Shown here piece by piece: positions 2,375-32,987 of a stretch of DNA of 64,000 bases. Below the pieces are notes generated by a model, which was not told the origin of the DNA, made no database searches, and saw nothing but the letters and a program-made list of their open reading frames with translations. Every line of letters begins with the position of its first letter. Position 1 is the stretch's first letter. The position numbers were made by a program, and so were the translations under genes. The DNA comes from Rhizophagus irregularis (taxonomy: Eukaryota), in the NCBI RefSeq assembly GCF_026210795.1, contig NC_089436.1:558001-622000 (forward strand), written 5' to 3'.

Positions 2375-3545
2375 CACAGGTCAAAAAAGAATCTATCATA
2401 CACATATCGGGTACCTATATATCGGTAACCAATTAGGTACATATCGGGTATATATACATATTAACAATATATCGGGTACCCGATTTGATTTTTAATGTGA
2501 AACTTCAAATATAGTTAAATTATCAGGTATCCGATATCTAAACTATTAGTTACCAGTATGTTATATAATATATATCAGGTATCCGATATGTGTATCACCG
2601 GTCAAAATCGATTCTATCAGGTACATATCGGGTACCTATATATCAGTGACTAATCAGTTATATATCGGGCATTTTTACATATCAGGTACCCGATTTATCA
2701 CATTAAAAATACTCCTAAAAATTGAGACCCTGATATCTAAACTATTAGTCACCAATATATTTCTAATAGATATCGGGCACCGATATTTGTATGAAATTCT
2801 AATAATCGGAGGTACTATGTGTGACACAAATTTTTCTATTTGGTTAAAATCTAATCGACAGTCATCTGACTGATCATTAATAATTTTTAAGATCGTTTAA
2901 ATATATATTTATTCTTTTTTTTAGAATGCTGGATCTCTTGTTTGTAGAATAACGGGACTTCTTTTTTCGCTGGATTTTTGAATGAATCTGGATTGGAATG
3001 TAGTAAGAAATAGAGAAGGGGAGAAGAACTTTTTGTTAATTTTAAAGAAACATAGTAAGGAATAGAGGGGAGATTTCCTTTTAATATTAAAGAAACGTAC
3101 TAACATTTCTTTCTTTCTTTTTTTAGGTTTTCAGACTTTTTGAATAGAACTTGAGCTTGAAATGTAAGAAATAGAGGAGGAGGGGGTTTCTTTTTAATAT
3201 TAAAGAAACGTACTAACATTTCTTTCTTTTTTTACTGATACTATATATATATATAAATGTTGATTCTTATAAGTACATTGCTTAAAAAAAACGTTACATT
3301 AATATTGAATACATCAATTTCTTATGTGCCATAGGCCAAAGATCGTGTTTTAGTAGGTTTTATATATAAAAGTTCCTTTAAAAATAAAATATGTATTGTG
3401 ATTACAAAATAATTCCTAATATATGGAATTTTTATAAAACTTTATTATTTTTTTTTTAAAAAAAAATTATATTAAAAATTATTCATACGATAAAAAAAAA
3501 TATAAAAAAAACATTATTGAATATTATAATATATTACGAAAAGAA

Positions 3546-3700
3546 CATCTGACCACAATCAGAATGCTGTTCGACCCCAATCGAACTAAGTCCAATTACA
3601 ATTGGACTAAAAAAAAAAATTTACATCTGACCACAATCAGAATACTGTTCGACCCCATCCCCCGACTAAGTCCAATTACAATTGGACTAAAGAAAAAAAA
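3546..3700. repeat. Two ~70-bp tandem direct repeats, each with the palindrome agtccaatt-ac-aattggact
   Basis: acatctgaccacaatcagaat..ctgttcgacccc..actaagtccaattacaattggactaaa occurs at ~3546 and ~3623. Confidence 0.85.
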
Positions 3701-3859
3701 TTTTTTTGCTGACCCAAAAAAAAAAGAAATTGGCTGCCCCACTTAAACATAAAAAAAAAATTCAGCCGATCTGATCTGAAAAAAGTTAAATAATTAGATT
3801 CAAAAAATTAGTAATAATAATTTTAAAATTTTACTTACAAAAATTATAAAAAAAAAGCT

Positions 3860-4603
3860 CTAGTGCCAAGGCTCTTTCTGTCTATTAGATTTACAATCCT
3901 TTGCTTGGTGCCTGGTACTTTTCCAACACTTTATACAACTTCCCCTATATTTTGGAGGTATTTGGTGGCAATTTACTAGCCAATGTGGGCCATAGCAATA
4001 TAAACAAAAAATTTTTGATGAATCACCTGTTTTTGTAATTTTAAAAATTTTTATATAATAAGTCATTAGATAATTTATAAACTTTAATTTCGTATTAAAT
4101 TAATAAATACTAGACTGGTGTAACGGTTGTAGTGGTTGTTGTTGTAATTGTTGTGGTTGTTGGTATGGTTGGTGCTTGGCAGCTGTTGTTACTAATAATA
4201 AATATAATGGAAATTTTTATATTAATAACTAAATTGATAGGACATTTTTTCTCAAAAGTGAATTGTTAAAAATTTCTTACTAATATTGCTAATATGAGAT
4301 AACGAAGAAATATATTTATCTGTTTCATAACTAAAAAATATATTTAAAATTATATTTAGGAATTTCTTTTTATTTATATTTTTATATTAATTATTTTACT
4401 TACGAATCATTCTTTTTAAGTGCGTCAACAGTAAGTTTATAAATTTCCTTTATTCCATCTTTATAAACTTGACTTGCGATCTTTTGAGCTTCTAACAACA
4501 ATATCTTATTTTTATCAGTTTTTTCAATTTTTTCATCTTCGTGACGAAACGTCTTACTTTTTTCAGGTTTTTCAATATTAGATTCATGGTTTTTTTTGTA
4601 CAT
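3860..4603 (-). CDS. Putative small multi-exon gene ending in two CCHC zinc-knuckle-like motifs (transposon cargo)
   Basis: ORF 3860-4066 has CLYCYGPHWLVNC and CIKCWKSTRHQAKDC. Upstream ORF 4400-4603 ends at a GTAAGT donor, with a Q/P-rich segment at ~4113-4190 in between. Exon joins are uncertain. Confidence 0.4.
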
Positions 4604-5003
4604 TTTAATAGAAATAAAAAAATGTAGGAAAAAAAATAAAAAACGCGTACATTTTATCTTTTTAAAAAAAACTCTTATGAAAAAAAAAAAAATTGATGTT
4701 AAAATGTTAAATTGGGGAATAAACCATTATTTTATAATATTTTTTAGAAAATCATGACGTTATAATTGATAATCTAAAGATTAAGAGCATGATAAACTTA
4801 GCTATATAAATCAATAAATAATGCTTTCCAGTAACCAAAAATGAATATCAGACAGTACCACATGAAAATACAGTATTTATATATAATCTTGCACATTAGA
4901 AATCAAATCGGATACCTAATATGTTGTTAATATGCATATATATATACCCGATATGTATCTAATTGGTTACCAGGTATCCGATATCTAAATTATTAGTTAC
5001 CAA

Positions 5004-5230
5004 CAGTGTTGGAAATTCAATGTGCGGAGTGTGCGCGCGCACAAATTTTAAAAACTCCGCACATGACCAAAAATTTTTGCGTGCGCTTTGCGCACACAAA
5101 AATTTGCATATCTGACACATTCTTGTATATTTTACACATTTCCGCACATTGCATATGAATTTGCGCACATAAAAATTTCAAATAATGTGCGCATTCTGCA
5201 CATGATTTAAAATCTGAATTTCCAACACTG
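5004..5230. mobile_element. hAT-type MITE, 227 bp
   Basis: Perfect 16-bp TIR cagtgttggaaattca/tgaatttccaacactg and perfect 8-bp TSD gttaccaa (4996-5003, 5231-5238). Internal tgcgcac repeats. Confidence 0.92.
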
Positions 5231-5549
5231 GTTACCAATATGTTATATAATACCCGATATGTGTAGGATTTTTTAATTTAAATAATATTTTGAAATTACA
5301 TGTTTGTTAATTAAAATTTTGTTCCAATTAATCTATTTCGATATTTTTTATAAGCTTATAATAAATAAAATATAACAAAATACATTGTTTTGCTAAATGT
5401 TAGCTTTTATGCAGATCAAATCAGATTAGATCTGTTCGATCTAAAGTTTAATCATTCAATTTATTATATAATCCAATAAAGTAAACTTATTTAAGACTAG
5501 ATTATAACAAGTATTACATAAAAAAAAGAATTATTTTGATTTATGTTTC

Positions 5550-6769
5550 TTATTTTTTTTTGATTTGACCTTTTTTTGGTTTTTTTTTCTTTTTTTTACT
5601 AGAATTTGTTCTGTTTTGAATTTCTTCTTCATTATTATTTTCATCTTCAATATCATTATCACTATTATTCTGATCATCAGTATTATAGTCATATACTGGA
5701 ATATTGACATTTGAATAGTTAAATTGTTCAAGTGCATCCTGATTAAGGCACCAACTTGGTACACCTATGGGTGGCACGTTAGATGTATTGTATCTTGATT
5801 GACTTGATTGAGCTCTTTTACGTTTTAAAGTTAATGGTTTCTTTTTTAATAATTCGACTGTTGGATCAATTCGGTCGTGTAATAATCTCAAAAGCTTAAA
5901 TAAATAAATTATTATTAATATTTTTAATAAATAAAACAAATAAAATAAAAATTATACATACTGCAGGAGAACGCCACCATTTATTATGAATGTATATTGA
6001 TGATGACTTTTGTTTTATAGCTTCCTCAATAATTTCATCATCTTCAACTACTGCAGATTGCGTAATGGGCCATTCTTCCTCAGGATCAGTTTCTTCCCAC
6101 TCTTCTGAGTGGTAACCTGAATCCTTAAGAATCTTTACTAGATCCTCCTCCGGATATCTGAGAATATATTTATTTTTATTCTCTATTAAGTAATTTGTTG
6201 CGTGCGCCCTTCTTTTCTTCTTCTAATAATGTAATTATAAAATGCAGTAAAGTTAACTAAAATTCTATTTCATATTAATTAAATATTTACTTACCTCTTG
6301 CATTCTTGAATTTTTACTTGATCTTCTCTTGTTTTGTTTAACTCTTTCATCTCCTTGATTTTTGATATTACTTGTACGATGTCTAGAACGCCACCGTCCA
6401 TACAACATTTTTAATAATTTTCTATTCGTAATGCTGTATTTTTTATTTACAATTTTATATAGAGGTGGCAGTAGCTTCGTAACTATATTCTCCTTTTGTT
6501 CGACCCAAGTTAGTTTTTCGTCTATTTTATAGATATCTTTTAGTTCGAGTCGACCCATATAAACACTTCTTGCTATAAAATAATAGGCAAACATAAATAA
6601 AATAAAAAAAACCAGAAATAATAAATAAATTATAATAAATAATACTTGCTTTAATCATTTTATATGATGATGAAGACGAAGATAAAGAGGAAGAGGAAGA
6701 GGAAGAGGAAGTAGAAGAGGAAGAGGAAGTGGAAGAAGAAGAAGAATTAGATTCCCGATCACTATCCAT
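5550..6769 (-). CDS. Spliced accessory gene of the CACTA element (hypothetical protein), divergent from the transposase
   Basis: Four exon blocks joined by short GT-AG introns: a Ser-rich start; RSVYMGRL..RWRSRHR..RMQE; KKKRR..HSEEWEETD..KWWRSPA; LLRLLHDRID..PPIGVPSWCL followed by an acidic then Lys-rich tail. Confidence 0.7.
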
Positions 6770-6914
6770 TATTACTTATATATTTTAGTTAAAATATAAA
6801 ATTTTGATTGAAAAGAGGAGAAAAGGGTTTGTGTAAATTTATATTGATTTCAGAATCATAAAGACACGAAAAACACGAATACGCAAATGTTATGATAGGA
6901 TGTGTGAATAAGAA

Positions 6915-7066
6915 TTAAACGCGAACTGATTCTAATCTAAAAAAAGAACGCGAACTAATTCGAATCTAAAAAAGAATTAAACGCGAATCTGATTTTGAAA
7001 GAAAAACGTGACCCTAAAAGAATTGAATGTGTAACTGGATTTCAAAAGGTGTTGAACGCGAACCCT
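6915..7066. promoter_or_regulatory. Cluster of AACGCGAA motifs in the bidirectional promoter between the accessory gene and the transposase
   Basis: aacgcgaa occurs 4 times, plus aacgtga and aatgtgtaa variants, within ~150 bp of CpG-poor DNA. Confidence 0.45.
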
Positions 7067-7149
7067 AATTTTGAAAAATAAGCTTCATTTAAGTAATTGT
7101 AACTTTAACTTTCTTGACACTTACATTTTAATAAATATATTTTAATAAA

Positions 7150-10100
7150 ATGAATAATAAAAAAAAGTAAAACCTCTACCTCTACCTCTGTGTCTGATTT
7201 AGTAAAACCCAAAAAAACTAAAATTGAAATCTCTGTGTCTGATTTAATAAAATCAAAAAAAAGTAAAGTTGAATCATCTGCCTCTGTATCCTATTTAATA
7301 AAATCTAAAATGGATAATTCAATAAAATCTAAAAAAACAAAGATGGTCGATTTAATAAAATCCAAAAAAAGGTACCTGTATCCATGTCTTTGTATTCGTT
7401 GTAATGGCACAAAGGTTGATTTTCGCACTCAAGAAAATCACACAAAGGAGAAAAGTTTATGGAACTCAGAGAATGCTAGAAAAAATCAGGCAGATACTAT
7501 TATAGCGAGAAAACAAAGAAAATCCATCATTATTCAAGATGCGAACCCTACAAAAAAGCGAAAAAGAAAAAGGGCATTAAATCCTAATCCTAATTCTTTC
7601 CAACAAAATAATGTCTTTGATCTTTTCAATGAAGAAACTGATTCATCCCAATCAAATAATAATGAAAACATACATACATTATTTTCATCATCACCATCAT
7701 TGCCAAATCCTTCTTATTTTCATATTCCAGCACCTGATGAAAATAAGGATAATGATGAATATATATATTATAATGAAGAAGAAGAAGAAAATGATGAATA
7801 TATATATTACAATGAAGAAGAAGAAGAAAATGATGATGATGAGGATGATGGTGATAATGATGAGGATAATGGTGATGAAAATAATGGTGCTGAGAATAAT
7901 GATGGTGAAGATGAAGGTGATTATAATGAAGATGATGATGATGATAATGATGGAAATGATGAGGAGGAGAAGGATGATATAGAAGAATTTTTTGCATCTC
8001 CTGAATTTGATAATAATGAAGTATTTGTAATGGAAAGCTTAAGTGATTCTATTAATACTGAGATTATAATATGGTTATTTAAATTTCAACAAAGATTTCG
8101 ATTACCTGATGTGGCACTTGAAGCATTAATAAAATTCTTACATATTGTACTTACTCGTTTAAATAAATCACAATTTAAAAATTTTCCAGCATCCTTATAT
8201 CTTGCAAAAAAAATGTTAAATATCTTTCAACCAAAAATGCAGTTAACTGTATGTAACAATTGTCATAAATTATATAATGTTAAAAATATTGTTGAATATA
8301 AAGAAGGAGGAAAAACTGCTATTGCAAATTGCCTACATGAAGAATTCCCAAATAATCCAGTACCCAGTCGTCGTAATAAATGCAATAATCCACTTTCTAT
8401 TCTTAAAAAAAAAGAAAGTGGAATAATTGCTGAACCTCGTATGATTTACCCTAAACCAAGTATTCGTCAACAATTAAGTATGTTATACCAACGACCTGGT
8501 TTTGAAAATATGCTAAAATTATCAGGAGTTCAAAGAGAAAGAGTTAATATCTATTCAGATATTTATGATGGTAATGTGTGGAAAACCTTTTCTTTTGATG
8601 GTAGTCCATTTTTTACATCAGAAACTGCCACAACCAATTTAGGTCTTCTTGTTAACCTTGACTGGTTTCAGCCATTTACATATACACAACACAGTACAGG
8701 TGCTATATATGCATCTATTTGTAACTTACCAAGATCAGAAAGGAATAAACCTGAAAATATTATATATTTGGGTTTTTTGCCAGGTCCAAAAGAAGTGGGA
8801 TTAGATCGTATTAATCATTATTTAGCCCCTATTGTAGACGAGCTTTTAGAGCTCTGGAGGGGCTGGAGAGTTCCAAAAACTTACCATTATCCTGATGGTC
8901 TAGACATTAAAGTTGCATTAATTGTTGGATCATCAGATATACCAGCCACACGAAAGTTGTTTGGACATGGATCTGCATTAATGAAATGCCATAGGTGTGA
9001 GAAACGTAGTGTTTATAGTGAAGAGTATAGAAAAAATCACTATGGAGGAGTTCATACTTATGAGTTGAGTAACGCAGAATCACATAGAAAACATGCATAT
9101 GAATGGTTGCAATGCAACTCAAAAAATTCTAGAGAAGATCATTTCAAAGAATATGGTATACGTTGGTCTGAATTGCTTCGTCTTCCATATATGGATCCCA
9201 TACGTTTTGCTGTAGTAGATCCAATGCATTGCCTTTTTCTTGGTGTAGCAAAATGGATAATTAAATCTATTTTTGTGAGCCAGGAAAAATTAAGTATGGA
9301 ACAACTTCGAGTGGCACAAAATAGAATGGATCATGTTAAATTACCTTCTGATATTGGTCGTATTCCTCCAAAAATTGCGATTGGAAGTGATGGATTTTCA
9401 AACTTAACTGCTGATCAATGGAAAACCTTTATTATGATTTAATTCTACAGCTATCTTGTGGGATATGTTAGATGATAATGACAGAAAGATTTTAGGATAT
9501 TTTGTTCGAGCATGTAATCTTTTGGTAACAAGAATTATTACTGAAGATGATTTAAAAGAAGCACAAGAGAGATTAAAAGATATGGCTTACCTTATAGAAA
9601 ACACATATGGACCAGAATTCATAACAAGTAATATACATCTTTCGCTTCACATTCCTGATTGCTGTCGTGATTATGGTCCTATATATAGTTTTTGGCTTTT
9701 TCCATTTGAGAGACTTAACGGATATATAGGTAGGATACTTGATGATTTTGTTGTCTTCTGATATCTTTTTTTAAAAAAAAATATAATCTATTATCTTTAG
9801 GATCATATCCCAACAGTAACCGAAAAATAGAACCTGAATTGATGAAAATTGTCCTTAAAAATACTTTAGTTGATTATCATCTAACATGTAAATGGACATC
9901 CGGCCTTTTAGATGAATCTCTTTGCTTTCTTGTAAAAAAAAAAGATGTAGGTAGTTTGGCACTTACAGCAGAAAGAGAAGAGTTACAATATTTCCTATCC
10001 ATGAGACATAGCACATCTAAAATATATGGTACTGAAGCAATACCAGGTCAACTGCTTAAACCATCATATTTAAGAGTTGTTATTCCTTCAGAATTGCGAA

Positions 10101-10609
10101 TGTTTCTATGTGAATGGTATGAAATGTTGTATGAGAAAGATCATGATGAAATATTAGGATTTATGGACTTACAAATTAACCAGCATGCAAGATTACAAAT
10201 TGGCTCAGAAATATTTGGATCTGTGATTGCAGGTCGTCATGAAACAAATTCAACTATTCTTGCGAAATGGAAAGCATTTAGTGATGAAACAATTGACATA
10301 TATCCAGGAGAGGTTCAATATTACTTTGAACATACACTTAGGTTACCTGAAGGGTCAAGAACTCATCTTTTGGCATATGTCAAATGGTATAAGAATGCAC
10401 CTTCCTCTGATATTCGGTTTAAACATAGGTTTATAGAACCAGAATTATCAAACACTGAATTATGGAAGGGTGAATACTATGAGGAAGGTTGTGATTCACT
10501 AATAGCGGTCCATAGAATATTATGTAGAGCCACAAAAATTAGAAACATTCGAGTCGGTAAACAAAATTATATATCAATAATGCCATTAAATAGAAAATTT
10601 AATTTATAA
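7150..10609 (+). CDS. EnSpm/CACTA Tnp2-family (Transposase_21 + DUF4218-like) transposase with two apparent +1 frameshifts
   Basis: Motifs DIYDG..W, NLDWFQPF, STGAIYASICNLP, GFLPGPKE, DIPATRK, CHRC, ELLRLPY, VDPMHCLFLG, TADQWK, HLSLHI..YGP..FWLFPFERLNG. Intron 9730-9800 (GTAGGA..TTTAG) joins GYIG/SYPNSNRK. An extra A in the A8 run 7159-7166 and an extra base at ~9441 (MIYSTAILW) break the frame. Confidence 0.9.
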
Positions 10610-11034
10610 ATATTAATTCCGGATTGAATGTTTTTTACAATTATACAAACAATAAAACGTGATGAAACATAATTGACTGAAACATTCCTTAATAGTTAAC
10701 TTGAAACTAAAAATAGTTAGTCTTATTAGTCAACATGTACATCCCTCACATACAGCACTATAACAGGTATGTCAAATATATCATTATACTGAAATTACTG
10801 ATATTACTTTTCTTATAGTGGATAAGTATATATGTTGAGTTATACATAATTAGATAATTAGATCTTTTAATTTGATATTAATCTACACCGTAAATGGAAC
10901 TTAATTCGAACTTAATTCGATCTTAATTTACACCGTTTTAGAATAGTATCAAACAATTAGACAAATGATTGATATACCGATATTACCGATATTTAATATA
11001 CTGATATTCAATATACTGATATATCAATATAGGT
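10586..11034 (+). repeat. Direct repeat copy 1 (transposase C-terminus plus 3' flank)
   Basis: ttaaatagaaaatttaatttata..gttgactgaaacatt..agtcaacatgtacatccc..tagaatagtatc..ataggt recurs at 19639-20035. Confidence 0.85.
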
Positions 11035-13324
11035 GGTCGAATAAAGAAGTATCTATATTTTTTTAAACGATGACTTTATTAGTGCTGAGAATTATCGATA
11101 TCTAGTGGCTTGAGTTTTCGCAACACGTTTCCTATTTACATTGATACAAACTACACATCATCTTTTTCTTTACCTACAATACCTGCCAATTCTATTTTCC
11201 CACCATTACCAACTATTCGTCACATCAAAATATTATTCGTCTTTCAACGTTCCAGATACGAGGTTGTTCAAATTAGTCCACGCCGTGGTTTGAAATCCCG
11301 TTTTTATTTATCAGCTCGTCCTGACTTCTTAGTTGTAATCCCTTTCCTAATTCATCTTCTATCCCGATTTGATATACTATTCATCATATCCTTTTCATTG
11401 GTGACGAATTTCGTTCTTAAGAACACCACATCTCCTTCTTCAAAATCTTCAATTTGAGTTACTTTAAGGTATACCACCCCGTCAGGTCAGCATCATTTAA
11501 TCTTATTACAACCATAACTTCCTTTATGATGTATTTTTGCGTTAAATGTTTGGTAGACTCATGGATGTAACAGATAATTGAGTTTTTGTTTTTAGTTTTA
11601 GTGGAATGTAATAAAAAATGAATAATCTAATGTTGTGAGTTTTATAGCTTTATTTTTTAAAGCTTCCAAATTCTAAATATTACGATTTGTTTATTTTGAA
11701 AGAAAAAAAAGGAGGAATGCGAAGCAATACGAATTTTTTCTCATGAAAAAAAAGTGGCTTCGCTATAATCACAAGAAGATGACAGTGAAAAAGAAATCTC
11801 ACACATTTTTCATAAGTTTTTTTACAAAATCCCTATATCTCATACTTCCTTATAGAAAAATATGAAATTACCAAATCATCATCTTAAAAAAAATACATGT
11901 TAAATCTTACATCTTTATAAACAAAAAAAAAATATTTTTTCTAATAATTTACAGAGACGTTTATTTTTTTTAATGAAAAAGGAGTATGAAAAATGGGGAA
12001 TTTGATTCTTTCTTAAAACGGTTCAGGCCCTTATAATTTACAAGGAATAAACCCGTTGATTGCAAGAAAGAAAATTTTTTTTCTTTTTGCAATTTATAAC
12101 CGGTTTAAATAATCGAAATAGAGCTGCATATTGTTTGAAAACGATAATCCAAATTTTTTTTTACTTGTATAACAAACATAAAAATGAATTTTTTTAAAAA
12201 AAAATTTTTTTTTATTTATAAGACCCATCTTCCCATGGGGCTATAATTTAAGATTCAATCCAAATAGAAATCGAAAAGGAATAGGAATCTGGATCTGAAT
12301 CGATTACATATTTTTTCCTATTTTGGCCAGGCAGATCCAACTAAAAAAGAATATACGTTGCAAGTGTTTTGAAGATCTTAACTCGAGAACTTTATGGGAA
12401 CATATAAAAATAAAAATAATATAGAATCCTTTAATAAAATTCATAAAAGGTATTTTGTAAAACATCTTACAGATTACAGAATAGGAAAAAGGCATTATAC
12501 CTGACGTAATATGCCATAATAATTACGGCTACAAATTTCTTTTTTTTTTTTATTTTTAAATAGTAACGCATTTTTATTAATTATTTATTAGTAAATACAT
12601 AATTATATAAAAATACTTAGAGCCTAATCCAAAAAAAAGATTAAACCCTATAACTAAGTATTCTGTAACAAAATCTAAAAAAAAATAAAAAATTTTAGTA
12701 TATACTAAACTCATGATGTAATGTTTATCAATATCTATTATTTTTTTTTTTGGATAAAAATTATTTATAACTGATAAGGTGCAAATTCGATAAAAAAGAG
12801 AATAAGCTCTACTCTATAATCTATAATCGAATCGAGGATTAAGAATAAATTTATAAATCAAAAAAAATCATAATTTTATATATAATCTAAATCTATAATA
12901 AATAGAAGAATATAAATTTTTCGAAGTTAATTTGTCTAGTAAAATCTAACCAAAAAAGAATATACTGGGTAAGTGTTTCGATGATCATTTAGACACTACT
13001 CCATAGTAATTAACTTTATTCGTACACTGTAATACATTTTTACAAAGTACAAAACCAATAAGAAATCAGTAGCTGTTTTCTATACCAGAATAAAAAAATT
13101 TTTTTTTTAAATTTCGGTTTAAAAAAAAACCGAAAAAAATAGATTTATTAAAAAAAAAAATTTTTTATTTATTATTTTAATCGTTTTTTTAAGAGAATAT
13201 ACAAAATCTATAAAATAAATCTTTATTTAGTTTGGTAATACCATTACCTCCTTCCATACTAAAGCCATTACACATACAGTAACGTTATACTGAATAGAAA
13301 TTTCTACAGAAGAAACTTTATTAA

Positions 13325-14600
13325 ATGGGAATGAAGATTATGAAATGGTTTTAAGAGCCGTAAATGTACTTAAATTTCAACTTGAACAAACAAAAGAAGA
13401 TATCAAAAAATAAAAGATATAAAATAACGTGCTCTATCAGATCCGGAAATGTTTATTGAAAAATTGCGCGATGGGACCCATGAAAAAATTTCCGAACGCC
13501 AGTATATATTTGGTGTTCCACAAGTCGATTGGAAATATCATACCCGGCCTTCACAGTATAAGCCACCGCCACGTCCAGGGCGAGAAGTTTCCAAGTCATC
13601 GACAAGTGATGATGAAAAATCACCTGACCCCGCTGAATTTGTTCATAAAAAAGCTCAAGTTAAGTTCCCCCAAATACGGTTTTGTCAACTCGTACTAAAA
13701 GGAAAACTAACCTAGTTTTTGATGATAACACACTTCCACAGAGCATTGGGTCAAATAAAAAAGGAAAACAGTCATTATATAGCACACCAGTTAAAAAAGA
13801 GGGGAGATAAGAAATGAATCGGCGAGTGCAGTTTCAAATAGATCAATGTTTAATACTCCTATTACTATTGCAAGCAGAGTTATTCACCTACTTTAACATC
13901 ATCAAATCGAAGAAATAATAAAAAGAAATCTAGTGATCTCAAATTATCAGAAGGTTCGCCAAAAACGGGAAATTATAATATACCTTGGACGGATGAAGAA
14001 CAACGTCGACTGGTAGAATTACTTGCGATTTAGAAAATTTCTGAAGCTTTAGGAACAAGAACACCGAAGCAGGTGGCTAGCAGGTTTGCGGCAGCAACAA
14101 CAAAAAATTCACAACCAAAGAATAAAAAAACTGGGACCAAAATCGATATTACCTTCCGAAAAAAAACCTCGACATTTGAGGATATCTGGATTATCGTATT
14201 TGGAAGCTCGACCACCACCAACAGTTTATATGCCCGATGATGATGATGAAAGTAGTATCAAGAATGTAATGATGTCAGTGGGTCGCCTACAGGACAATGA
14301 TATACAACAGATGTGTAATTTTATTACGGGACCAGTGCATTATGGTTTTTGTTGTGATGGATGTCATATGGATCCAATAATTGGAACACGATATCTTTTT
14401 AATGAATGTGATGAAAGTCTTGAAGTTGTTCTATGTGAAGAATGTTTTGTCGAAGGATCTTTTGAGAATGAATATCACTAGAAAACGCACAAGTTTACAT
14501 TAATCACAAATCCTATAACACCACATATTGATAAAGATTATGTACCAGAAAATGTTGGAGAATATAATTATTTAGGTGTTGCACCTCCCTCTACATCGTA
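13325..14600 (+). pseudogene. ZZZ3-like (Myb/SANT + ZZ zinc finger) host-gene pseudogene inside the transposon
   Basis: Broken frames: NEDYEMVLRAVNVLKFQLEQ..DPEMFIEKL; SANT NIPWTDEEQRRLVELL..ISEALGTRTPKQVASR; ZZ VHYGFCCDGCHMDPIIGTRY..LCEECF..YH. Several stops and frameshifts, no obvious introns. Confidence 0.75.
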
Positions 14601-14879
14601 ATATATTCTTACATCGTAATAACGTTTTTAAAAAAAAATTGTGCTATAATAGATGTGATTTTTTAAAAAAAAAGAAAAAAAAAAATTGTATCACGTAATC
14701 AGTTTGCCGATCGATCTTTTTTTTTCAATTCGATAAAAAAAGTCTAATAAAAAAAAATATCTTTACTTGAACCTGACTTCGTAAAGTATATTTTTTTTAA
14801 AAAAAAGTGTTAACATTTCGTTATAAATGTTTTTTAATACACTTAGAAAAAAAAAATAAAAAATTAAAAGAAAGTCCGG

Positions 14880-16250
14880 TTCATCATTTTATTAGGCAAC
14901 TTCTTGGAATTAGACGAACTGACAGTATGTAAGTAGGGTGACGTGCATATGTTTTTTTTTAAAAAAAAGTTTTTTTTAAAATTTTTCTCTTATTTTTTGT
15001 AGATATCGGTCCTTCGGCTTTGGACTTCGGATATTAACTTCTTGGACTTCGGTTGGATTTCTCGACGTTGGGGCCTTCTTTTGTAGGTCGGCAATGAATT
15101 GGTAAGTTTTGAAAATTTAAATTTATTTATTTTTGATTTTTTATTATTTTGATTTTATTTTGATTTTTTTTCTTTTTTTTTGCAGGTATTGAACTTTCCG
15201 AACTCTGGATGATATGATCGGTAAGTTTCGAAAGTTTAGTTTACTTTCGAAACATTTCTTGAAATTTTTTTTATTTTGTTTTGAAGAAACTAACCGTTTC
15301 TTCTTTTGTCTATTTTGTAGGAATTGTCTTTAAGATTTTTTGGATCAGCTTTTCAAGTAAGTTTCGAAGTTTCTCTTCGAAACTTTTTTTTTAAAAATTT
15401 TTTTTAAAATTAATTTTTTTTTATTGTAGGTTGTACTTATAATTAGACGTTATAACTCATGATGGGATCGGTGAAGTGTTTGGTAATGGTGACTCCAGTA
15501 AGGCACAGAAGCATATGACGACGAGGATGAACCTGATATATCTTGATCCAGCTTGAAACGAAACTGGACTTTAAGGTAGTGAGAAATGGGAAAAGGGGGT
15601 TTTTTTGTTATTTTAAACTTAAGAAACGAACTAACGTTTCTTTTCATTATTTTTTTTTTGTAGGACGCGTACTAGAAGGGCGCCGGCTTGAATACTACGA
15701 CGGACTACTTTAAGGTAGTAAGAACGGGAAAAGGGGGGATTTTTTTATTTTAAATATGAGAAACGAACTAACGTTTCTTTAATTATTTTTTTTTGTAGGA
15801 CGCGTAGAAAGGGGGATAGAGGAAGGTGATTTTGTTAGAACCAAGATTCTTATCTTGGTTTATTTATTTATTTTTTTATTTTATGGAACGGTTTACTAAC
15901 CGTTCCTTTCTTTCTTTTATAGGTTCGGGTAGACATCCGACGAATGGAACCAAGATTCGTAAGTATTCCGAATCTTGGTTTTTTTTTCTTTTTTTTAATA
16001 TTATGAACGGTTACTAACCGTTCCTTTTCTTTTTTTCATAGATTTGGGTGGGTTTCCAAAGAACCGAAAGAAGGAACCAAGATTCGTAAGTATATACGAA
16101 TCTTAACGGATTGGTAAGTTTCGAAGTTTCACTTCGAAACTTTTTAATTAAATTAATTTTTTTTTATTAATACTTTTATCTTTTTATCATAGGTTGTATT
16201 TCCTGGACACGAAGATTGGTAAGTTTCGAAGAATAACTTCGAAACTTTTC
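14880..16250 (+). ncRNA. Putative spliced transcript of ~10 mini-exons with repeated, hairpin-containing introns and no long ORF
   Basis: Regular alternation of GC-richer 30-150 nt exons with GTAAGT/GTAGT..CTAAC..(T)nTAG introns, e.g. 15102-15185, 15576-15663, 15715-15798. Introns recur as near-duplicates. Confidence 0.55.
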
Positions 16251-17154
16251 TTTGTCCCAGAGTATTGAGTTAATTTAATAGACTTTAGTATATAGATTGT
16301 TATAGTGTAATTTAATGTATATAGATTGTTTAATATAGTGTAATTTAATAAAATAATTTGTTATTCAATAATATTTAGCATCGTTATATTAACATATATA
16401 AATAATAGTAAAATATTGATATGATGTTTATTATCTTTAAAATAATGTACATCGTAATGTATGGGTAATGAACATTTTGAATTGGCGATGAACATCAAAT
16501 ATTGTGACATCGGTAGTACATTGCAGGTCAGCATTTCTTTATGATGTACATCAAGTGGCCGATGTACATTTGATGAACATTTTTCCCGTGACTTCCTGAT
16601 GTAATTATGTCAGTATAAATGAATTACGTTGCGTCAATACGCAATTCGGCATTGTGCCGTAATATTACGGCATTTGAAAATGAGAAGTATACTTATAAAT
16701 ATGTAAATTAGGATATATGGTTAGAATAATCTCATACTGTGTTCTTATGTAACCGATCTGCGCCAAGCCTAGATATCAATATTGCAAATCAGTGACATAT
16801 TGAGTATGACTAGTACCTCATTATTAGACCGGTGGCGATATTTATTTATTTTTATTAAGAACGTTCACACAGTAAGTTTTTTTCGCTCCAATCCTTCTAT
16901 TTCTTGCATTTTATTCTTTTAATGTTTCTTTTTTTTATGATATTTCAGTCTTCCAGTTGATTTTAAAACATGTAAATTTATTATTTTCATTTATTTTAAC
17001 TTCTTTGTTCTGTTCCTTATTAACTTTATTTTATTTTACCTTGATTTTATTCTTTAGTTTGTCTTTTGATTTTATTCTTTGGGTTTGTTATCTTGATTTT
17101 GTTCCTTGGATTTATCCTTTACTTTAGACTTACTTAGCTTCTTTTAAGAAAAAG

Positions 17155-19138
17155 ATGAAACGTTCAAGACATACCAAATACAATGCAAAGAAACGATTAC
17201 AAAAGACATCTATGGTACTTTTCATTTTACTTCTAAAAATATAAACAATTCCACTATAATCTAATATCAGAATTTTATAATTAAACAGCAAGTTCAAGAT
17301 ACGAATTCTTCTTCTCAAACAATAGCTTTTGATCTTATAGAGGTATATGATATTATCATTTATAAACTGGATGATTTACTGATCTAGTTTAATATATAAA
17401 TGAATCAGGATGATGATCTATTTATATACTACTAGATCTAATACTTATATAAATAAGTAATTTAACGAGACAAATTTTTTTTTTAATTTATAATTAAGCA
17501 ACAAACTCAAGATGATGTTAGTTCCTCATCTGTTAGTTCCTCCTCGCCTGTTGAAGTAAAAACAAACATAATATTTAATCCTTTGCAGGTATATATTATC
17601 TTTGATATGTCATAAAATATAAAATATAAATAAAATAATCTATATTGTATAATTTAAGCATCGAACTCAAGGAGGTTCCAGAGATTTAAGTACCTCAGAT
17701 ATAGTTCGATATATGAAAAATGAATGGTCAAGTGTTCCGCTTTGCGCTTTTTGCCGAATATTTTCTAATGTAACAACAATTTCAATTATGAAAGATATTT
17801 CAGTAATGGATTTATTAATTGAATGCTTAATAAGGGAATCAAGACAATCTAAAAATAATAATGACATTCCTGAAATTCCTTTAGAATTTTATAATCTTGC
17901 TAAAAGTATTACTGAATCAACTAATGATCAATTAATGAACAATAATAATGATATGTGGATTAAATTTGGTCAATGGTTGGAATTAAAAAAGCCAATTAGT
18001 AAAAGTGATGTACATCAACATCTTAAATCACAATGGAAGAGACTTTCACATGCTGCTGAAATTCGAAATTCTAAAGTTTTGGAAATATCCAAAGAAATTT
18101 TAGAAATTGAGAAAAAAAAATCAACTATAAATAAAAAAAATGATTGTATCAGCACAAGATAATAATATTAAGAACTTTCGTTATGTAACAAATTCTGAAT
18201 GTATTGTTGATGGTTGTGGTAAAACTTTGGTTCATCTGGATGGACTTGATGATTTTAATGCTGTCATTGAAGCAACCAAAGCCATAAATAGTTATTATTT
18301 TCATATGTTGGACAATCCAATCCATCGAAGTAGAAGTTTTTGGAAAAATCTTGCTGAACGATTTGGAGCTTTCATTAGTTATGGTGATCTTCCATATACT
18401 ACTTCTGATACTGCCAGCTCTCATAATATTGATCATCAGAATTGTGTTAACGATCTACTTTTTGCACTACAACCAATATCAAATAGTGTAAACAGATTTG
18501 TTAACAAATATTATGAACATTATTATACAAAACTAAGCAAGTTAACAATAGGACCATTTGTACCGAGAACTTTTGGAATTTTTCCCACAATAGCTATTAA
18601 TTTTAACGTAATCAGTAATTACCATTGGGATAGTAATGATGATCCAAATGGACTTTGTTTTTTGGTAGCTTTGGGAGATTTTGAGGGAGGCGAATTATGT
18701 TTTCCTCAACTTCAAATCCTGGTAAAATTAAAACCAGGACAAATTGTTGCATTTCCTTCTTATTTGCTATTACATGGCAACCTTCCGATTATTAGAGGGA
18801 TAAGATTCAGTATAGTTTATTTTGTGCATGCGAATTTTTTATCTAAAAAATTTGAGAATTTTCATAAAAATAATGATAATGATACAATCATTAAAATACA
18901 AGATCTTTATAATTCTCAAGGTCATAATCCAAAACGAATTTTACTTAAAAAAGCACAACAATTTCAAATTGAGGAGGAATCATCAGAAAATTCAACAGAT
19001 AAAAGAAGATACAAAGATGGTAAATATATATTTTTATTGTTTGTTTTTTTTTTAAATAAATAAATATCTAATTTGTAAATTATTTTAGATTTGATAAAAG
19101 GACGAAGAGGTTTAAGACATGAAGATCTTTTGGAATAG
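17155..19138 (+). CDS. TET/JBP-like 2OG-Fe(II) dioxygenase (spliced; one +1 frameshift in an A8 run)
   Basis: Exons 17155-17214, 17289-17342, 17499-17588, 17659-19019 and 19089-19138 join in frame except at A8 18133-18140. The core AINFNVISNYHWDSND..LGDFEGGELCFPQL..LKPGQIVAF..LLHGN..GIRFSIVYFVH has HxD...H...RxS spacing typical of fungal TET/JBP. Confidence 0.8.
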
Positions 19139-19638
19139 AAATCATAAATAAAATTAGAAATACGAAATTTTCTTTGAAGATTGTTTTGCTGTTTATGTTT
19201 GATAGGGTAAATTTCTGAATTATTTTTCAAGTAATTCATGGTAGGTACTTTGACTCCTGAATTGAAATTTGATAAAGTAATTTACTTAGTCACAAAATAA
19301 AAGAACAGTCTAAAAAGAATTTTTGATTAAGTCTAAAGTAATAGGAGTAATCATTTTATGTTCTTGGGGACGATTATTTCCTCCCATGCGACTTAATCAT
19401 TATATTTTATTATTTTATAAACTTTTTTAATTTAATTTTTATTTATTTATTTTTTTTTTATTCTAAATTTTTATTATTAAAATTATGATTCATTTAATTT
19501 AGCTGTACTTATTAAAGAATATTAAAGAATTATAGAAGGGTTGATTGGCGAATAATTAAATTTATTCATATTTTAGATAAAGAATTGAAATTTCACTTTA
19601 TTGCTTTTTTTATTATTACTTTTGCATTATTTTAATTG

Positions 19639-20035
19639 TTAAATAGAAAATTTAATTTATAGATTAATTCTGGATTGAATACGTATTTTACAATAAATTA
19701 TACAAACGATAAAAAGCGTGAAACATAGTTGACTGAAACATTTCTTAATAGTTTAAACCTGAAACTAAAATTAGTTAGTCTAATTAGTCAACATGTACAT
19801 CCCATCACATGCAGCATATATGAATTCTTTCATTTGATATAACTGGTCAAATATATCATTATACTGGAACTTAATTCGATTTTAATTTACGCCATTTTAG
19901 AATAGTATCGAACAATTAGACAAATGATTGATAACAAACTTATAAAATTAACTACACATGAAATTCGTATTGTCTTCAGTTGACATAGCGATATTTAATA
20001 TACTGATATTCATATACCGATATACTAATATAGGT
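19639..20035 (+). repeat. Direct repeat copy 2 (transposase C-terminus plus 3' flank, ~100 bp internal deletion)
   Basis: Matches 10586-11034 and still encodes LNRKFNL*. Confidence 0.85.
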
Positions 20036-20817
20036 ATAATTGTAATATAATTAAGGAATATGACTTAAAATATTACATTTTTTTTAAAGAAAAATACCTC
20101 TTAAATATAATTGCTTTGTTTTACAATCGATGAATAGCAAAAATATATAATTACAATTATTGCTATAACAAAAATATTAATTCTATATTTTTTATTTATA
20201 GAATTTTTTATTTAGATATTATTAACATGTTTCAAATAAATTGATAAATAAAAATATGTGTATGTGTAATGATCAGTTAAATATTTTTTAGTTTTATTGT
20301 AAGGTTAAAATTAACCAATAAAATCACATTGATCTTTATGCATAATGTAATAATATAAACCAATTAAGATCATTTTGATTATATGCATATGATATCTAAA
20401 AATAGATAAATTTTGTGTTTACTAATGCGTGATTTTTTTTGTTTATTTTCAAAGATACACTTTTCTTTCTTATTAAAAATACTATACTTTTCTTTACAGT
20501 ATTTTTGTTTGTCACTTCTTTTCTCTTTTATTCAAGTATACTTTAATTATCTTTTACAATATTAACAATACTTTACCACTTTAGTTTATATATTCAACAT
20601 AGTAAGACATATCTATTCACGAAATGTACCTACCATTCACATACAAAAGAAGAGAATAAAAGAAAAAAAAATGTACGCAACTACCCACATACAAAAAAGA
20701 GAAAAGCTGCTTTTAAATAATAGTAGAGCTATTAAGCAAGGTATGAAAATAGGATATACACGTATTTTTCATATTTTCTTTACAATATGTTGTGGTTTGA
20801 GTCTTTTTTTGTGGTAT

Positions 20818-20980
20818 AAGTGTGAATATATTTTTCAACGGCCATGTATCTATTGCTTGTTAAATATATTTGCAATTTCTTGTCTTTCTTTGTTAGACTG
20901 TGGTATTACAATATGAAGTGTAAATATATTTTTCAACGGCCATGTATCTATTGCTTGTTAAATATATTTACAATTTCTTT
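20818..20980 (+). repeat. ~62-bp direct duplication
   Basis: aagtgt(g/a)aatatatttttcaacggccatgtatctattgcttgttaaatatattt(g/a)caatttctt at ~20818 and ~20916. Confidence 0.85.
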
Positions 20981-21257
20981 TGTAATATTTGCTTTAGCCT
21001 GGAGGAAAATGTTATGAAATAGGGCTGGATATTTTATGACATTTTCTGCCTTCCAATTACTTTGTCCGGGGGTAGCCTGACAATTTGTCGTTATCCGTCA
21101 GTTGTAGCAACCAGCATTTTTTTACAATATTATGATTTTAAGAAACAAAATTTTTTCAAAAATTTAAAGAAAGAACTAATTTAAAAATATTATTTTATTA
21201 TTCTTTACAAATGCTGGCGCTGGAGTTATTTTTTCTCTCACTTATCAAATCCCAACA

Positions 21258-21438
21258 TGTCCAAAGACTAATCATGTAGTACGCTGTGGTCTGGAACCAC
21301 CCAAGATTTTTGACTACTTAGGGATGAAGTTGTAGGGTACTTGTACCTGATAGGCCAGCCTCCTCTGACTTAAGGTCTCATTAATTGGGAGACGAGGTGG
21401 TTCCTAAGTATCTTCCACATCAAGAGCGGACATTTTTT
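21258..21438 (+). ncRNA. Candidate structured RNA (~180 nt) ending in T6
   Basis: GC-rich island with nested complementary arms tgtcc/ggaca, cgct/agcg, gtgg/ccac, ggaaccacc/ggtggttcc and gtctc/gagac, immediately followed by TTTTTT. Confidence 0.4.
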
Positions 21439-22777
21439 GATACTATACATAAAGATGGTAATTCTATATCTGCGAATTCAAGAAAAAAAAATCTAAATCA
21501 AAAGATGTCAAGGTAATCTAAACATTCTTTTAGAAAAATTTAATCAAAGTTTAAATTGGTTTATATATAGTAATTTTAAGAAAAAGAAAATCTAATCATG
21601 TATTTTTAGAAGAATATGGAAGTAACGCATATCAAGGTAATTTAAATATTTATTTTTTTATTTTATTAAAAAAATAAATTAATATATTTAATAGCAAACT
21701 TCAAAAAAAGGTGAAATAAATATAAAGGTATATTTTTTACTAATTTTTATTTAAATTATTAATATTTTTAATACTTCTTTTCTTTTTTTTAACCTACTAA
21801 TGTTTGTTTTTACTAATATATTTTACTACTAAATATACTAACATTTTCTATTACTAACCATTTTTTATGTTTCTTTTCTTTTATTAACATTTCTAATATC
21901 ATTCCTTTTCTTTTACAAATTCGTTTAACAATATTTATACTAATATCTTTATTATTACTAATATACTTTACTATTTCTATTTCTTTCTTTTAAATATTAA
22001 AAAGATAAAAATAAGCAGCAAATAACCGAACACATTATTTGTAGATAACAGATATACATAATTCTAATTATTTATATGGCTAGAATAATTTTTATATACT
22101 TTTTTGTAATTTTATTTTTTTGTAATTTTTTATTATTAATTAAAAATAATAAAACTTTTAGTACTATTAAATAAATTAATATTATAATTGAATTTAAATT
22201 ATGGATTTATTAGTATTTATATTATTGCATAAAATAAATATTGTACAAGTGTATAATATCTATCCGATATTTTACTATAATATACCGGGTACCTGACAAT
22301 TGACTACCCGATATGTATATGATGTTTATAATATATGTCACTGATTTTCTATATTTCTACTACATATATCAGGTACCTGATATATGTAGTATTGTTAAAT
22401 ATCATACACATATTTCACATTTATTGTACACATATCAGGTATCCGATATGTACCCAAGTTTACCACAATTTTGACCAGTGATTCTATATCTATCTGTCTG
22501 ATATCTGTATGATATCTGTATAATATATATATGATATATATCATAATATATTGGGTACCCAATAAGTCTATAATATGTGACCAATATTTAACTACCCGAT
22601 ATATGTAAGATGTATATATGATGTTTGCAATATATGTCACCGATTTTCTACATTTCTACTACACTTATCGGGTACCCGATATGTGTAGTATTGTTAAATA
22701 TCATACATATATATCACATATATTGTACACATATCAGGTACCCAATATGTACCCGATAGCATTAATTTTGACCAGTG

Positions 22778-23256
22778 ATATAAAGAATATATTAAATAAC
22801 TTGACATCTAATAATCATACAAAAATGTATCATAGCTTGTTAGAATCGTCTTACTGAGATGAATTGAATGGTGGTAGTTTTATTATCCTTTTACGATCAC
22901 TAGCTGATAACAAAATATTAAACATCGGCATTATCATATTTCTTAATTTACATTTACTGCGCCATTTAATATTTTGCTAAATTTCTTGGTATTTAGTGAT
23001 TGTAAAAAGACGATTAATAGCTCGTTGGAATCGCCTCATTAAGACGAATTAAATGGTGGTAAGATTATCTTTCTACGATTAATATTGGCGGAATTACAAT
23101 ACAATAAAGTTTTAAGTATAATTTTGGCCAAAATTATGTTAATTTTTGGCCAGAATTATAATATACTAATATAAGAAATTTTTTATATAGTCACATCTCT
23201 TTATAATTACCAAATATAGACTGTTCCAAATGCGTGACTATAAAAAGAGTTGACTG
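22778..23256 (+). mobile_element. Right arm of a Tc1/pogo-like non-autonomous element
   Basis: Ends gtgactataaaaagagttgactg|TA. Internal duplicated gaatcg(t/c)ct..agacgaatt.aatggtggta blocks. Confidence 0.55.
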
Positions 23257-23258
23257 TA

Positions 23259-23591
23259 TATAGCTACTATCTGATATATATCTGACATGATATTAAATAT
23301 ACAATATTTATATATATATATATTACCAATATTTTACTACCTAATATATGTGTGTTAAATATATGATATCTATAAGATATGTCACTGATATTTGACTACC
23401 TGATATGTGTAAAATGTATATATGATGTTTATATAATGTATGTATTACCATTTTTTTACATTTATACTACACATATCAGGTACTATCCAATAATATGTGT
23501 AGTATTATTAAATATCATACATATATATCACATATATTATACACATATCAGGTACCTAATATGTACTCAATAGCATCAATTTTGACCAGTA
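23259..23591 (+). mobile_element. Solo, decayed right terminus of the same CACTG family
   Basis: Similar to 22481-22777 and ends ttttgaccagta. CpGs are converted to TpG/CpA. Confidence 0.75.
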
Positions 23592-27223: not shown

Positions 27224-28209
27224 ATTAAACTATATATTATCTTATAACATGTAATGTATGTTAAATGACTGAAAAAGGCAAAAAAACAAAATATTAGCAA
27301 GAATGTTTCTTAGAAAAAAAAGTTTTCAAAAGTAATGTAACATTAAAAACTTATCTAGGTTCTAATAGAAAATATTTTTAAAAAAGTTTTTGAAATATTT
27401 TTTAAAAACTCATTTAAATTTTCAGAATCGAAAGTTGAAAAGGAAACCTATAAAAAAAAGATAAAGGAAGTATTAGTAGTAAACACTTCCTAAATATAAA
27501 AAAAAACAGTTTTTTTTTTAAAAAAAAAATTGAAGTCAGATAAACTCATCTAATAATTTAAACCTAAAATTTTTTTTATATTAGTAACTGCAATTAGCAT
27601 ATGAAAATAATTATAAAAAGTATATATTAATCTTAAATTTTCAAGTGGATCTTATAGTCTATTAGGTTTAGTAGACATTATAGCAACATGTTAAAATAGT
27701 GTATTTCAAATGTTACCTATCTGATTAACTATTATAATCACTCAACAGTGCACATATGGAGTTTTATATCAAAATGATAAATAGACAGAATAGTTTACAA
27801 ATTTATAATAATATTAGAATAGTTTACATTAACGTTATTCTAATAGTATCATAGTTAGTAAAAAAAAAAAATTAAATTTTCAAGACATTAAAATTAAATG
27901 ATAATATATAATATATAAGAGTGATATGATTGTAAAAACATCTGATTGTATATATATATCATTGCAAATTTGCAATTATACTTTTAAAATATAGTAAATA
28001 AAAATAAAAAAGTTTATTTTTTATTATAATTTTATTATAATGATTTTTTTTTTTATTATAATTCATTATGAACACAAAAACAGTGTCCACATGACATGCG
28101 ATTTTCATCTATTTAAACAACTTTTACATTACTGTGCAACAATAAATATTCATTCTTTCCTCTTTCTAACGCCAACGTTTAAATAACAGTTTTTAACGTT
28201 ATAAAATTA

Positions 28210-29655: not shown

Positions 29656-29810
29656 TTATTAAATAAACTGATGTCACGGTTATATCACATGACACGCCAT
29701 TCCGAATTTTATTTAATGTTCACGATACTGTGCAACAATAAATATTCATTCTTTCCTCTTTCTAACGCTAACGTTTAAATAACAGTTTTTTTGATAACGT
29801 TATAAAAATA

Positions 29811-31262: not shown

Positions 31263-31362
31263 ATTAAATTGATTCGCTGTTACATATCACATGATATGTG
31301 ATCTTCATTTATTTATTATAAAGTTAGTACGACAATTCTTTCTCTAATTTTTGAAAATAAAA

Positions 31363-32823: not shown

Positions 32824-32987
32824 ACTGATGTCACAGTTATAATATCACATGACATACGATTTTCATCCGGAAAATAATCAATAAAGCTCCGAATTTTATT
32901 TAATGATAGCACCGTGCTACAAATTCTTTCTCTTTCTAACACTGACGTTAAATAACAGTTTTTTGATAACGTTGTAAACTGAAATTC

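What the first reader, a model, noticed from the sequence alone, without database searches (positions are those of the whole stretch)
17155..19138. TET/JBP-like DNA dioxygenase carried inside a CACTA/EnSpm transposon
Seen: a five-exon gene with intact HxD..H..RxS core lies between the CACTG termini, on the same strand as a Tnp2 transposase. Established: fungal TET/JBP genes are known mainly as cargo of KDZ and Plavaka transposons in basidiomycetes and can oxidise 5mC (some also 6mA); AM fungi methylate their transposons. Inference: an element-encoded anti-silencing or self-marking enzyme in a different transposase family and lineage.
Basis: partly seen in the sequence, partly recalled or inferred. 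Interest (0 to 1): 0.78.

Follow-up and report, generated by a model that had tools for sequence, protein, structure and literature searches.

The report
Fungal transposon carrying a TET enzyme
A large DNA transposon, found in several copies in a plant-root symbiotic fungus, carries a gene for a TET-type enzyme that likely oxidises the methyl marks the fungus uses to silence transposons; such cargo was described in rusts, mushrooms and truffles, and we found no report of it in this fungal group, though this copy is frameshifted as assembled.

Summary
The gene is real. It has five GT-AG exons (17155-19138) and matches a Rhizophagus irregularis protein at 533 of 537 compared residues. It is TET/JBP-type, not P4H or AlkB: Tet_JBP is the only Pfam hit (just under the cut-off), and a homologue's model matches CcTet, NgTet1 and TET2 (Z 18-21) well above AlkB/P4H (Z ≤12). 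Its pocket is NgTet1-like, which predicts 5mC rather than 6mA. 'Intact' is wrong for this copy: a 2-base deficit in an A-run stops translation at codon 236, before HxD, and the transposase has two slips. Other DNA runs and one RNA run are in frame, so this is assembly error or one dead copy. Cargo status is well supported indirectly: accession numbers place TET, a Myb/ZZ fragment and the Tnp2 transposase side by side at several loci of public assemblies, and copies are 98-100% identical. The ends (CACCG at 2596, CAGTG at 22777) are plausible but unproven. TET-bearing EnSpm elements are already published for rusts and Agaricus (Kojima 2025), so the 'different transposase family' point fails. 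The new parts are the host lineage and the TET type.

The parts
2596..22777 (+). Likely extent of the composite EnSpm/CACTA element (about 20.2 kb); ends inferred, not shown
   Evidence: Most parsimonious pairing of the terminal motif: 12 of 13 bases match, 83% identity over 30 bp, AT on both flanks; no empty site seen
2596..2608 (+). Left terminal inverted repeat, begins CACCG; followed by subterminal palindromic repeats; a second, more diverged left end at 2375
5004..5230 (.). hAT-type MITE inserted in a subterminal-like repeat, with an 8-bp target duplication; source of the CACTG at 5226
5550..6775 (-). Multi-exon accessory ORF divergent from the transposase, no Pfam family above cut-off; membership of the element inferred from position only
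7150..10609 (+). Tnp2/EnSpm DDE transposase (PF02992 + DUF4218; C(2)C and H(3)H motifs); two +1 slips in this copy; full-length 1086-1130 aa copies, 89-100% identical per segment, exist in public assemblies
10586..11034 (+). 3' flank of the transposase, 80-94% identical to the 3' flank of the TET gene (19639-20035)
13428..14481 (+). Decayed Myb-like/ZZ zinc-finger gene fragment that travels with the element
   Evidence: Pfam ZZ; 97-100% identical copies next to TET or Tnp2 accessions
17155..19138 (+). TET/JBP-type dioxygenase gene, five exons; 538 aa in in-frame copies; frameshifted here
18132..18139 (+). A-run, two bases shorter than in runs X3, X12 and X15; causes a stop at codon 236
18623..18829 (+). 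Catalytic core: HxD (18623), Asp at H+5, distal His (18773), RxS with aromatic residue at R+6 and His at R+8 (18803-18829)
19639..20035 (+). 3' flank of TET, similar to the transposase 3' flank
22290..23591 (-). Three tandem right-end copies with subterminal repeats, ending at 22480, 22777 (both CAGTG) and 23591 (one mismatch)

Best explanation
The gene encodes a TET/JBP-type dioxygenase that sits beside an EnSpm/CACTA transposase at several loci in Rhizophagus irregularis assemblies, likely as cargo of one element of about 20 kb, and its in-frame copies are predicted to oxidise 5-methylcytosine and so would loosen the host's methylation silencing of transposon DNA. Shown: gene structure, fold class, conserved iron and 2-oxoglutarate ligands, purifying selection, multi-copy near-identity, repeated adjacency to the transposase, and splicing of one intron. 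Inferred: (1) the Tnp2 enzyme moves the whole unit between the CAC..GTG ends; (2) the enzyme flips 5mC into an NgTet1-like pocket (Asp at N4, Phe stacking, His at N3) and makes 5hmC/5fC/5caC; (3) the oxidised marks escape maintenance methylation or are repaired, which relieves silencing of the element. The window's copy cannot make the enzyme as assembled; it is either mis-assembled at homopolymers (more likely, since all three slips are A-run length changes) or a dead copy.
For: Tet_JBP is the only Pfam family for the core ORF, E 6e-8. Best PDB sequence hit is CcTet, E 8e-5. Model of P0002 (92% identical to the in-frame form; pLDDT 77.5): Foldseek lists TET-family chains first (E 4e-12 to 2e-6) before any P4H (4.7e-5) or FTO (8e-5); VIA Z 20.6 CcTet, 19.4 NgTet1, 18.2 TET2, against 12.1 ALKBH3 and 11.2 PHD. 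ESM Atlas: 27 of 30 hits are Tet_JBP clusters, top score 0.96. Of 39 aligned proteins: HxD 38, distal His 39, Arg 37, Ser 38, Asp at H+5 38, Phe/Tyr at R+6 38, His at R+8 36; these map on CcTet G331 and R393, which correspond to NgTet1 D234 and H297 (PMC11040006). dN/dS is 0.15-0.42 in the 36 of 45 comparisons where dS was not saturated. In the CAB5 series 4 of 10 TET accessions have a partner within 4; 0 of 200,000 random draws reach that. Seven copies are 98-100% identical. Depth of the main type is 6-9 times that of a diverged type in 2 runs (a hint only). R. irregularis TEs are CG-methylated, expressed TEs are less so, and CMC elements expanded recently (PMC8647823 passages).
Against: No enzyme assay exists. 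The Pfam score (32.5 bits) is under the curated cut-off of 34.9, and the family profile gives CcTet only E 0.004 with a bacterial P4H at 0.025. This copy is frameshifted. The ends are unproven: only a 2-bp AT flanks them, the left end is more similar to the copy at 60731 (90%) than to 22777 (83%), and the same terminal family forms a stand-alone 410-bp MITE in L011. 6 of 10 CAB5, 5 of 6 CAB4 and 3 of 5 OCT59 TET accessions have no listed partner, and no TET accession is listed beside the GET/GBC Tnp2-ZZ pairs; the lists were partial (15 of 41 TET and 15 of 47 Tnp2 members). Pairs from different assemblies may be one insertion. A relative 77% identical in the core (L001) has no Tnp2 or ZZ match in 10 kb upstream. 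No DNA-targeting domain was found, so action in cis is not shown.
Confidence: 0.62

Rival explanations
1. The enzyme oxidises 5mC but without targeting: it writes 5hmC and further marks across methylated repeats genome-wide, as a mark rather than an eraser, and any gain to its own element is indirect.
For: In Coprinopsis and Laccaria, oxidised mC covers retrotransposons and centromeres as well as TET-bearing elements (as summarised in PMC12730594). The protein has no recognisable DNA-targeting domain.
Against: Purifying selection together with persistent transposase linkage fits a benefit to the carrier.
Confidence: 0.17
2. TET is not cargo of one element. It belongs to a second, transposase-less derivative or a duplicated block that landed next to the Tnp2 element and was copied with it.
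For: The 3' flanks of the transposase and TET genes are 80-94% alike; there are three tandem right ends and two left ends; metagenome relatives sit beside other transposases or none.
Against: The same Tnp2-ZZ-TET neighbourhood recurs at several loci, two of them far apart in one assembly (OCT59_006619/20 and 030055/56), and no copy of the terminal motif lies between 2596 and 22468.
Confidence: 0.12
3. The enzyme is mainly a thymine hydroxylase (JBP- or dinoflagellate-like) that makes 5hmU.
For: Asp at H+5 is shared by NgTet1 and TbJBP1, and NgTet1 has minor activity on T (PMC11804724 and PMC4678852 passages).
Against: With Asp, Phe and His all as in NgTet1, the 5mC preference is reported as 32-fold. 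No glucosyltransferase or J-binding domain was seen in the window's ORF scan.
Confidence: 0.07
4. It is a prolyl 4-hydroxylase or AlkB-type enzyme, as several UniRef labels say.
For: UniRef names 'Prolyl 4-hydroxylase alpha subunit domain-containing'; weak profile hit to a Bacillus P4H, E 0.025 over 42 positions.
Against: No P4H or AlkB Pfam hit for the window ORF at E ≤1; fold searches place TET-family chains 6-9 Z units higher, aligned over more residues; the TET base-contact residues are conserved.
Confidence: 0.02

Closest known systems
TET+ EnSpm elements of rusts (PU type) and Agaricales (PE type), Kojima 2025, PMC12730594
   Same: TET/JBP gene inside a CMC/EnSpm DNA transposon with CAC..GTG ends; proposed escape from methylation silencing; TET genes passed between transposon superfamilies.
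   Different: Host is Glomeromycotina, absent from that survey. HxD, not the PE-type HxE. The one PU-type EnSpm TET sequence seen (EnSpm-1_PGr) has Ala at H+5 and no RxS, unlike this family. No 3-bp target duplication here.
CcTet and AG-type TETs of Kyakuja/Zisupton (PDB 7VPN, 7W5P, 8JKK)
   Same: Best sequence and fold match; transposon-linked fungal TET.
   Different: About 16% identity in the fold alignment; CcTet has Gly331/Asp337/Arg393, which allow 6mA, where this family has Asp/Cys/His; the carrier is EnSpm, not KDZ.
NgTet1 (Naegleria; PDB 4LT5, 5CG8) and human TET2
   Same: Z 19.4 and 18.2; Asp or Asn, aromatic and His base contacts at equivalent spacing.
   Different: Host-type enzymes; TET2 has a Cys-rich Zn domain and Asn at the N4 contact.
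VANC proteins of Arabidopsis VANDAL elements (from the introduction of PMC12730594 and recall)
   Same: Transposon-encoded anti-silencing cargo.
   Different: VANC is a sequence-specific binder, not an oxidase.

Membership tests
TET/JBP dioxygenases | HxD...H iron triad and RxS 2-oxoglutarate arginine in a double-stranded beta-helix | tested here: met
   HxD 38, His 39, Arg 37, Ser 38 of 39 aligned; present in the window; beta-rich core in the model
TET/JBP dioxygenases | Pfam Tet_JBP at the curated cut-off (34.9 bits) | tested here: inconclusive
   Window ORF 32.5 bits, E 6e-8, only family hit; close relatives pass (P0043 36.4; P0063-P0068 41.6-50 bits)
TET/JBP dioxygenases | Fold closer to TET/JBP than to AlkB or P4H | tested here: met
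   Model of homologue P0002: Z 17.7-20.6 for CcTet/NgTet1/TET2, 13.2-14.2 CMD1, at most 12.1 others (a re-ranking of Foldseek's top 1000); same order in Foldseek
TET/JBP dioxygenases | Base-contact residues (NgTet1 D234, F295, H297 equivalents) | tested here: met
   Asp 38, Phe/Tyr 38, His 36 of 39; mapped by sequence alignment to CcTet and the correspondences in PMC11040006, not by structural superposition of residues
TET/JBP dioxygenases | Oxidation of a 5-methylpyrimidine in DNA | not testable with these tools
   needs an assay
TET/JBP dioxygenases | Open reading frame through the catalytic core in this copy | tested here: not met
   stop at codon 236; in frame in runs X3, X12, X15 and in P0202, P0204, P0213
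EnSpm/CACTA (CMC) element | Tnp2-type DDE transposase with C(2)C and H(3-4)H motifs | tested here: met
   PF02992 43.3 bits and DUF4218 31.6 bits, both over cut-off; motifs located in P0341
EnSpm/CACTA (CMC) element | Terminal inverted repeats starting CAC, with subterminal repeats, enclosing the genes | tested here: inconclusive
   2596 and 22777 match at 12 of 13 bases and enclose both genes, but several copies of the end exist and the pairing is not unique
EnSpm/CACTA (CMC) element | Target site duplication (3 bp in EnSpm; 2-5 bp across CMCT per PMC12730594) | tested here: inconclusive
   Only AT/AT, uninformative in DNA about 75% A+T; no 3-bp match
EnSpm/CACTA (CMC) element | Dispersed copies of the whole unit | tested here: met
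   Indirect, from accession order: TET-ZZ at two loci of one assembly, TET-Tnp2 at three loci, Tnp2-ZZ on several contigs; empty sites not seen
AG-type TET (Kojima) | Gly/Ser at CcTet 331 and Asp at 337 | tested here: not met
   Asp (38 of 39) and Cys (39 of 39)
PE-type TET (Kojima) | HxE motif | tested here: not met
   HxD in 38 of 39
PU-type TET (Kojima) | Clusters with rust TET sequences | not tested

The most novel reading that the evidence does not exclude
Arbuscular mycorrhizal fungi have their own, fourth lineage of transposon-borne TET enzymes with a canonical 5mC pocket. It is swapped among EnSpm, hAT, RAG1/Transib-like and integrase-type elements, is still amplifying and expressed in R. 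irregularis, and puts 5hmC into genomes where no 5mC eraser was found in the papers searched, which would explain young transposon copies with low methylation.
Probability: 0.35. Interest if true: 0.75.

Novelty: new variant of a known kind. Interest (0 to 1): 0.55.

Why it matters
AM fungi are symbionts of most land plants, have TE-rich genomes and methylate their TEs at CG sites (PMC8647823, passages). A transposon-borne TET would give a concrete counter-measure and a testable reason why some young copies are hypomethylated. It extends TET-bearing transposons from Dikarya (Kojima 2025) to an early-diverging lineage, with a TET type whose pocket differs from the AG and PE types. The genes are hidden in databases under 'prolyl 4-hydroxylase' and 'calnexin independence factor' labels. 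Near-identical copies with and without an open frame offer a natural comparison in existing nanopore data.

Tried and rejected
No whole genome is held, so copies, boundaries and empty sites could not be counted directly. Read-laying covered only 17125-19380, so the transposase slips, the termini and the link between genes were not checked on reads; the best DNA holder X1 gave no record over the slip, so error versus real allele stays open. Viral contigs and prokaryote genomes hold no confirmed relative. A search for inverted repeats with target duplications around TET plus transposase in 7 metagenome loci gave one low-complexity candidate in L015, which I rejected. Gene models P0001, P0004 and P0205 skip the slip region with an intron; I first read this as a shared frameshift allele and rejected that, because the skip is 99 nt and in frame in the longer form; the segment is coding in relatives and retained in RNA contig 17. 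The TIR-like match in L011 first looked like a conserved element end but is a separate MITE. The hAT gene at 24356-26930 starts beyond the right ends and does not contain TET. The tree (48 rows, chosen by hand, partial and redundant loci left out) has no named reference TETs, so it cannot place the family among PU/AG/PE. Earlier findings: none returned. PMC13229309 gave nothing on pocket residues. Iyer 2014 is not held. My first exon boundaries were off by one and were corrected. No complex prediction was run.

Full report
Setting. No genome is held for the window. It is A+T-rich eukaryotic DNA with a BTB/TLDc-like gene array and a Sel1-kinase-like gene (names from my reading of the translations). 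The nearest named homologues of the gene and of the transposase are from Rhizophagus irregularis at 96-100% identity.

The gene. Five exons with four GT-AG introns are present. They match P0204, a 538-aa R. irregularis protein, at 226 of 228 residues before an A-run near 18132 and at 307 of 309 after it. The window's CDS is two bases short, so the first stop is at codon 236, well before HxD at residue 391. DNA runs X3 and X12 and RNA run X15 have two more A there; X1 had no record laid on the site. X15 also shows the last intron spliced out, so some copy is transcribed; contigs cannot say which or how much. The transposase has two +1 slips, while all 10 full-length database copies inspected read through the second one and start in frame. 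All three slips are A-run length changes, which points to consensus error in a repeat, but a dead copy is not excluded.

Family. Tet_JBP is the only Pfam match (32.5 bits, under the 34.9 cut-off), and CcTet is the only significant PDB sequence match; a family profile was weaker (E 0.004, with a P4H at 0.025). Structure settles it. An AlphaFold model of homologue P0002 ranks CcTet, NgTet1, CMD1 and TET2 ahead of all P4H and AlkB chains in Foldseek, with Z 20.6, 19.4, 18.2 and 14.2 for CcTet, NgTet1, TET2 and CMD1 against at most 12.1. The ESM Atlas agrees. The triad and RxS are conserved in 37-39 of 39 aligned proteins, and dN/dS is 0.15-0.42 in 36 of 45 comparisons, the other 9 being saturated. 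Positions equivalent to NgTet1 D234, F295 and H297 are Asp, Phe/Tyr and His. Passages of PMC11040006, PMC4678852 and PMC11804724 tie this set to 5mC preference, exclusion of 6mA and minor T activity. Named relatives are in Rhizophagus, Glomus, Gigaspora and Diversispora.

The element. The Tnp2 gene lies 6.5 kb upstream of TET on the same strand, with a decayed Myb/ZZ fragment between them. A 13-base terminal motif occurs 5 times (0.10 expected): left-facing at 2596 and right-facing at 22480, 22777, 23591 and 60731, with none between 2608 and 22468. The pair 2596/22777 is the simplest reading, but only AT flanks it, the left end is closer to the copy at 60731, and the family also forms MITEs. 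The CACTG at 5226 belongs to an inserted hAT-type MITE.

Do the genes travel together? Accession numbers, which by convention follow gene order, say yes. TET lies 2-4 numbers from a full-length copy of this transposase in three cases, and 1-4 numbers from the ZZ fragment in five; the ZZ fragment lies next to the transposase on several contigs. In the CAB5 series 4 of 10 TET accessions have a partner within 4 (0 of 200,000 null draws); in the OCT59 assembly 2 of 5 have an adjacent ZZ (null 0.002 for one). The CAB4 series (1 of 6 paired) and the PK and GET/GBC series were not put in the null. Lists were partial (15 of 41 and 15 of 47 members), and pairs in different assemblies may be one insertion, but the two OCT59 pairs are separate loci of one genome. 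Seven TET copies are 98-100% identical, and contig depth of this type is 6-9 times that of a diverged type (a hint only).

Wider relatives. The metagenome scan kept the best 80 of 243 confirmed stretches; L001-L055 are clear relatives. After merging near-identical loci, 18 groups have at least 2 kb on one flank. Six have a transposase-like neighbour, all downstream of TET: Tnp2 in L015 (Pfam) and L034 (41% to the window's), a distant CMC-like one in L028 (E 2e-6), a hAT-like one in L018 (Pfam E 0.014, weak), an rva_4 integrase in L017 (E 1e-81) and a RAG1-like one in L038 (Atlas lead). L015 and L018 TETs fall in one supported clade despite different neighbours. This resembles the swapping seen in rusts, but there is no background control, these genomes are TE-rich, short or split ORFs could be missed, and no enclosing ends were found. 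L001 lacks the window's arrangement in 10 kb upstream.

What is known. Kojima 2025 (PMC12730594; I read parts 1-5 of 7 of the text, and keyword-searched text and supplement; supplement cells are cut at 400 characters) describes TET genes in 11 transposon lineages including EnSpm, in rusts, Agaricomycetes and Pezizomycetes only. A 2026 review lists the same range (PMC13297926, passages). Oliveira 2024 (PMC11075540, passages) and Dallaire 2021 (PMC8647823, passages) cover R. irregularis TEs and methylation without TET cargo. PMC4738411 names the species only in a legend (passages). Searches listed no paper on AM fungal TET genes; I saw only the top 10-20 listings of each, two phrase searches returned nothing and may miss the slash spelling, the library lacks most subscription papers, and Iyer 2014 could not be read, so its supplement may list Rhizophagus genes.

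Verdict. A real TET/JBP gene, very likely cargo of a recently amplified EnSpm element in an AM fungus, with a broken reading frame in this assembled copy. The kind of system is known; the host lineage and the TET type appear new. Family about 0.93, cargo about 0.85, 5mC-directed anti-silencing about 0.62 overall. Interest 0.55.

Noticed in passing
window 5004-5230: 227-bp hAT-type MITE with an exact 8-bp target duplication, inserted in the element's subterminal-like repeat.
   Followed up: yes
window 24009-26930: hAT transposase gene (Dimer_Tnp_hAT) starting with the same CAGTGTT end as the MITE, just beyond the right termini.
   Followed up: partly
window 28183-37282: Tandem array of six BTB-type genes about 90% alike at 1.4-1.6 kb spacing; five have long ORFs, the fifth copy appears broken.
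   Followed up: no
window 42427-42704 and 44921-45024: Short CACT-ended MITE-like elements related to the terminal family; the first has a 3-bp ACA duplication.
   Followed up: partly
window 51738-52635: Fragments of a second, diverged Tnp2 transposase.
   Followed up: no
window 10586-11034 versus 19639-20035: The transposase and TET genes share an 80-94% similar 3' flank; TET may have entered by replacing a transposase in a duplicated cassette. Part of it also occurs, reversed, beside the TET of L020.
   Followed up: partly
window 14900-16250: Run of very short GT-AG-flanked segments with repeated intron-like units and no long ORF; a similar sequence lies upstream of the TET in L001.
   Followed up: no
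window 3863-4099 (-) and L015:12767-12979: Small CCHC-like ORF, 51% identical to one upstream of the Tnp2 in L015 in the same relative orientation; a weaker match lies in L012.
   Followed up: partly
L017:7191-10293: Two TET genes in tandem, the second frameshifted, followed by an rva_4 integrase ORF.
   Followed up: partly
P0150, P0174: Distant relatives: one fused to three PHD fingers, one carrying both a Tet_JBP-like and a PF20515 Tet-like domain.
   Followed up: no
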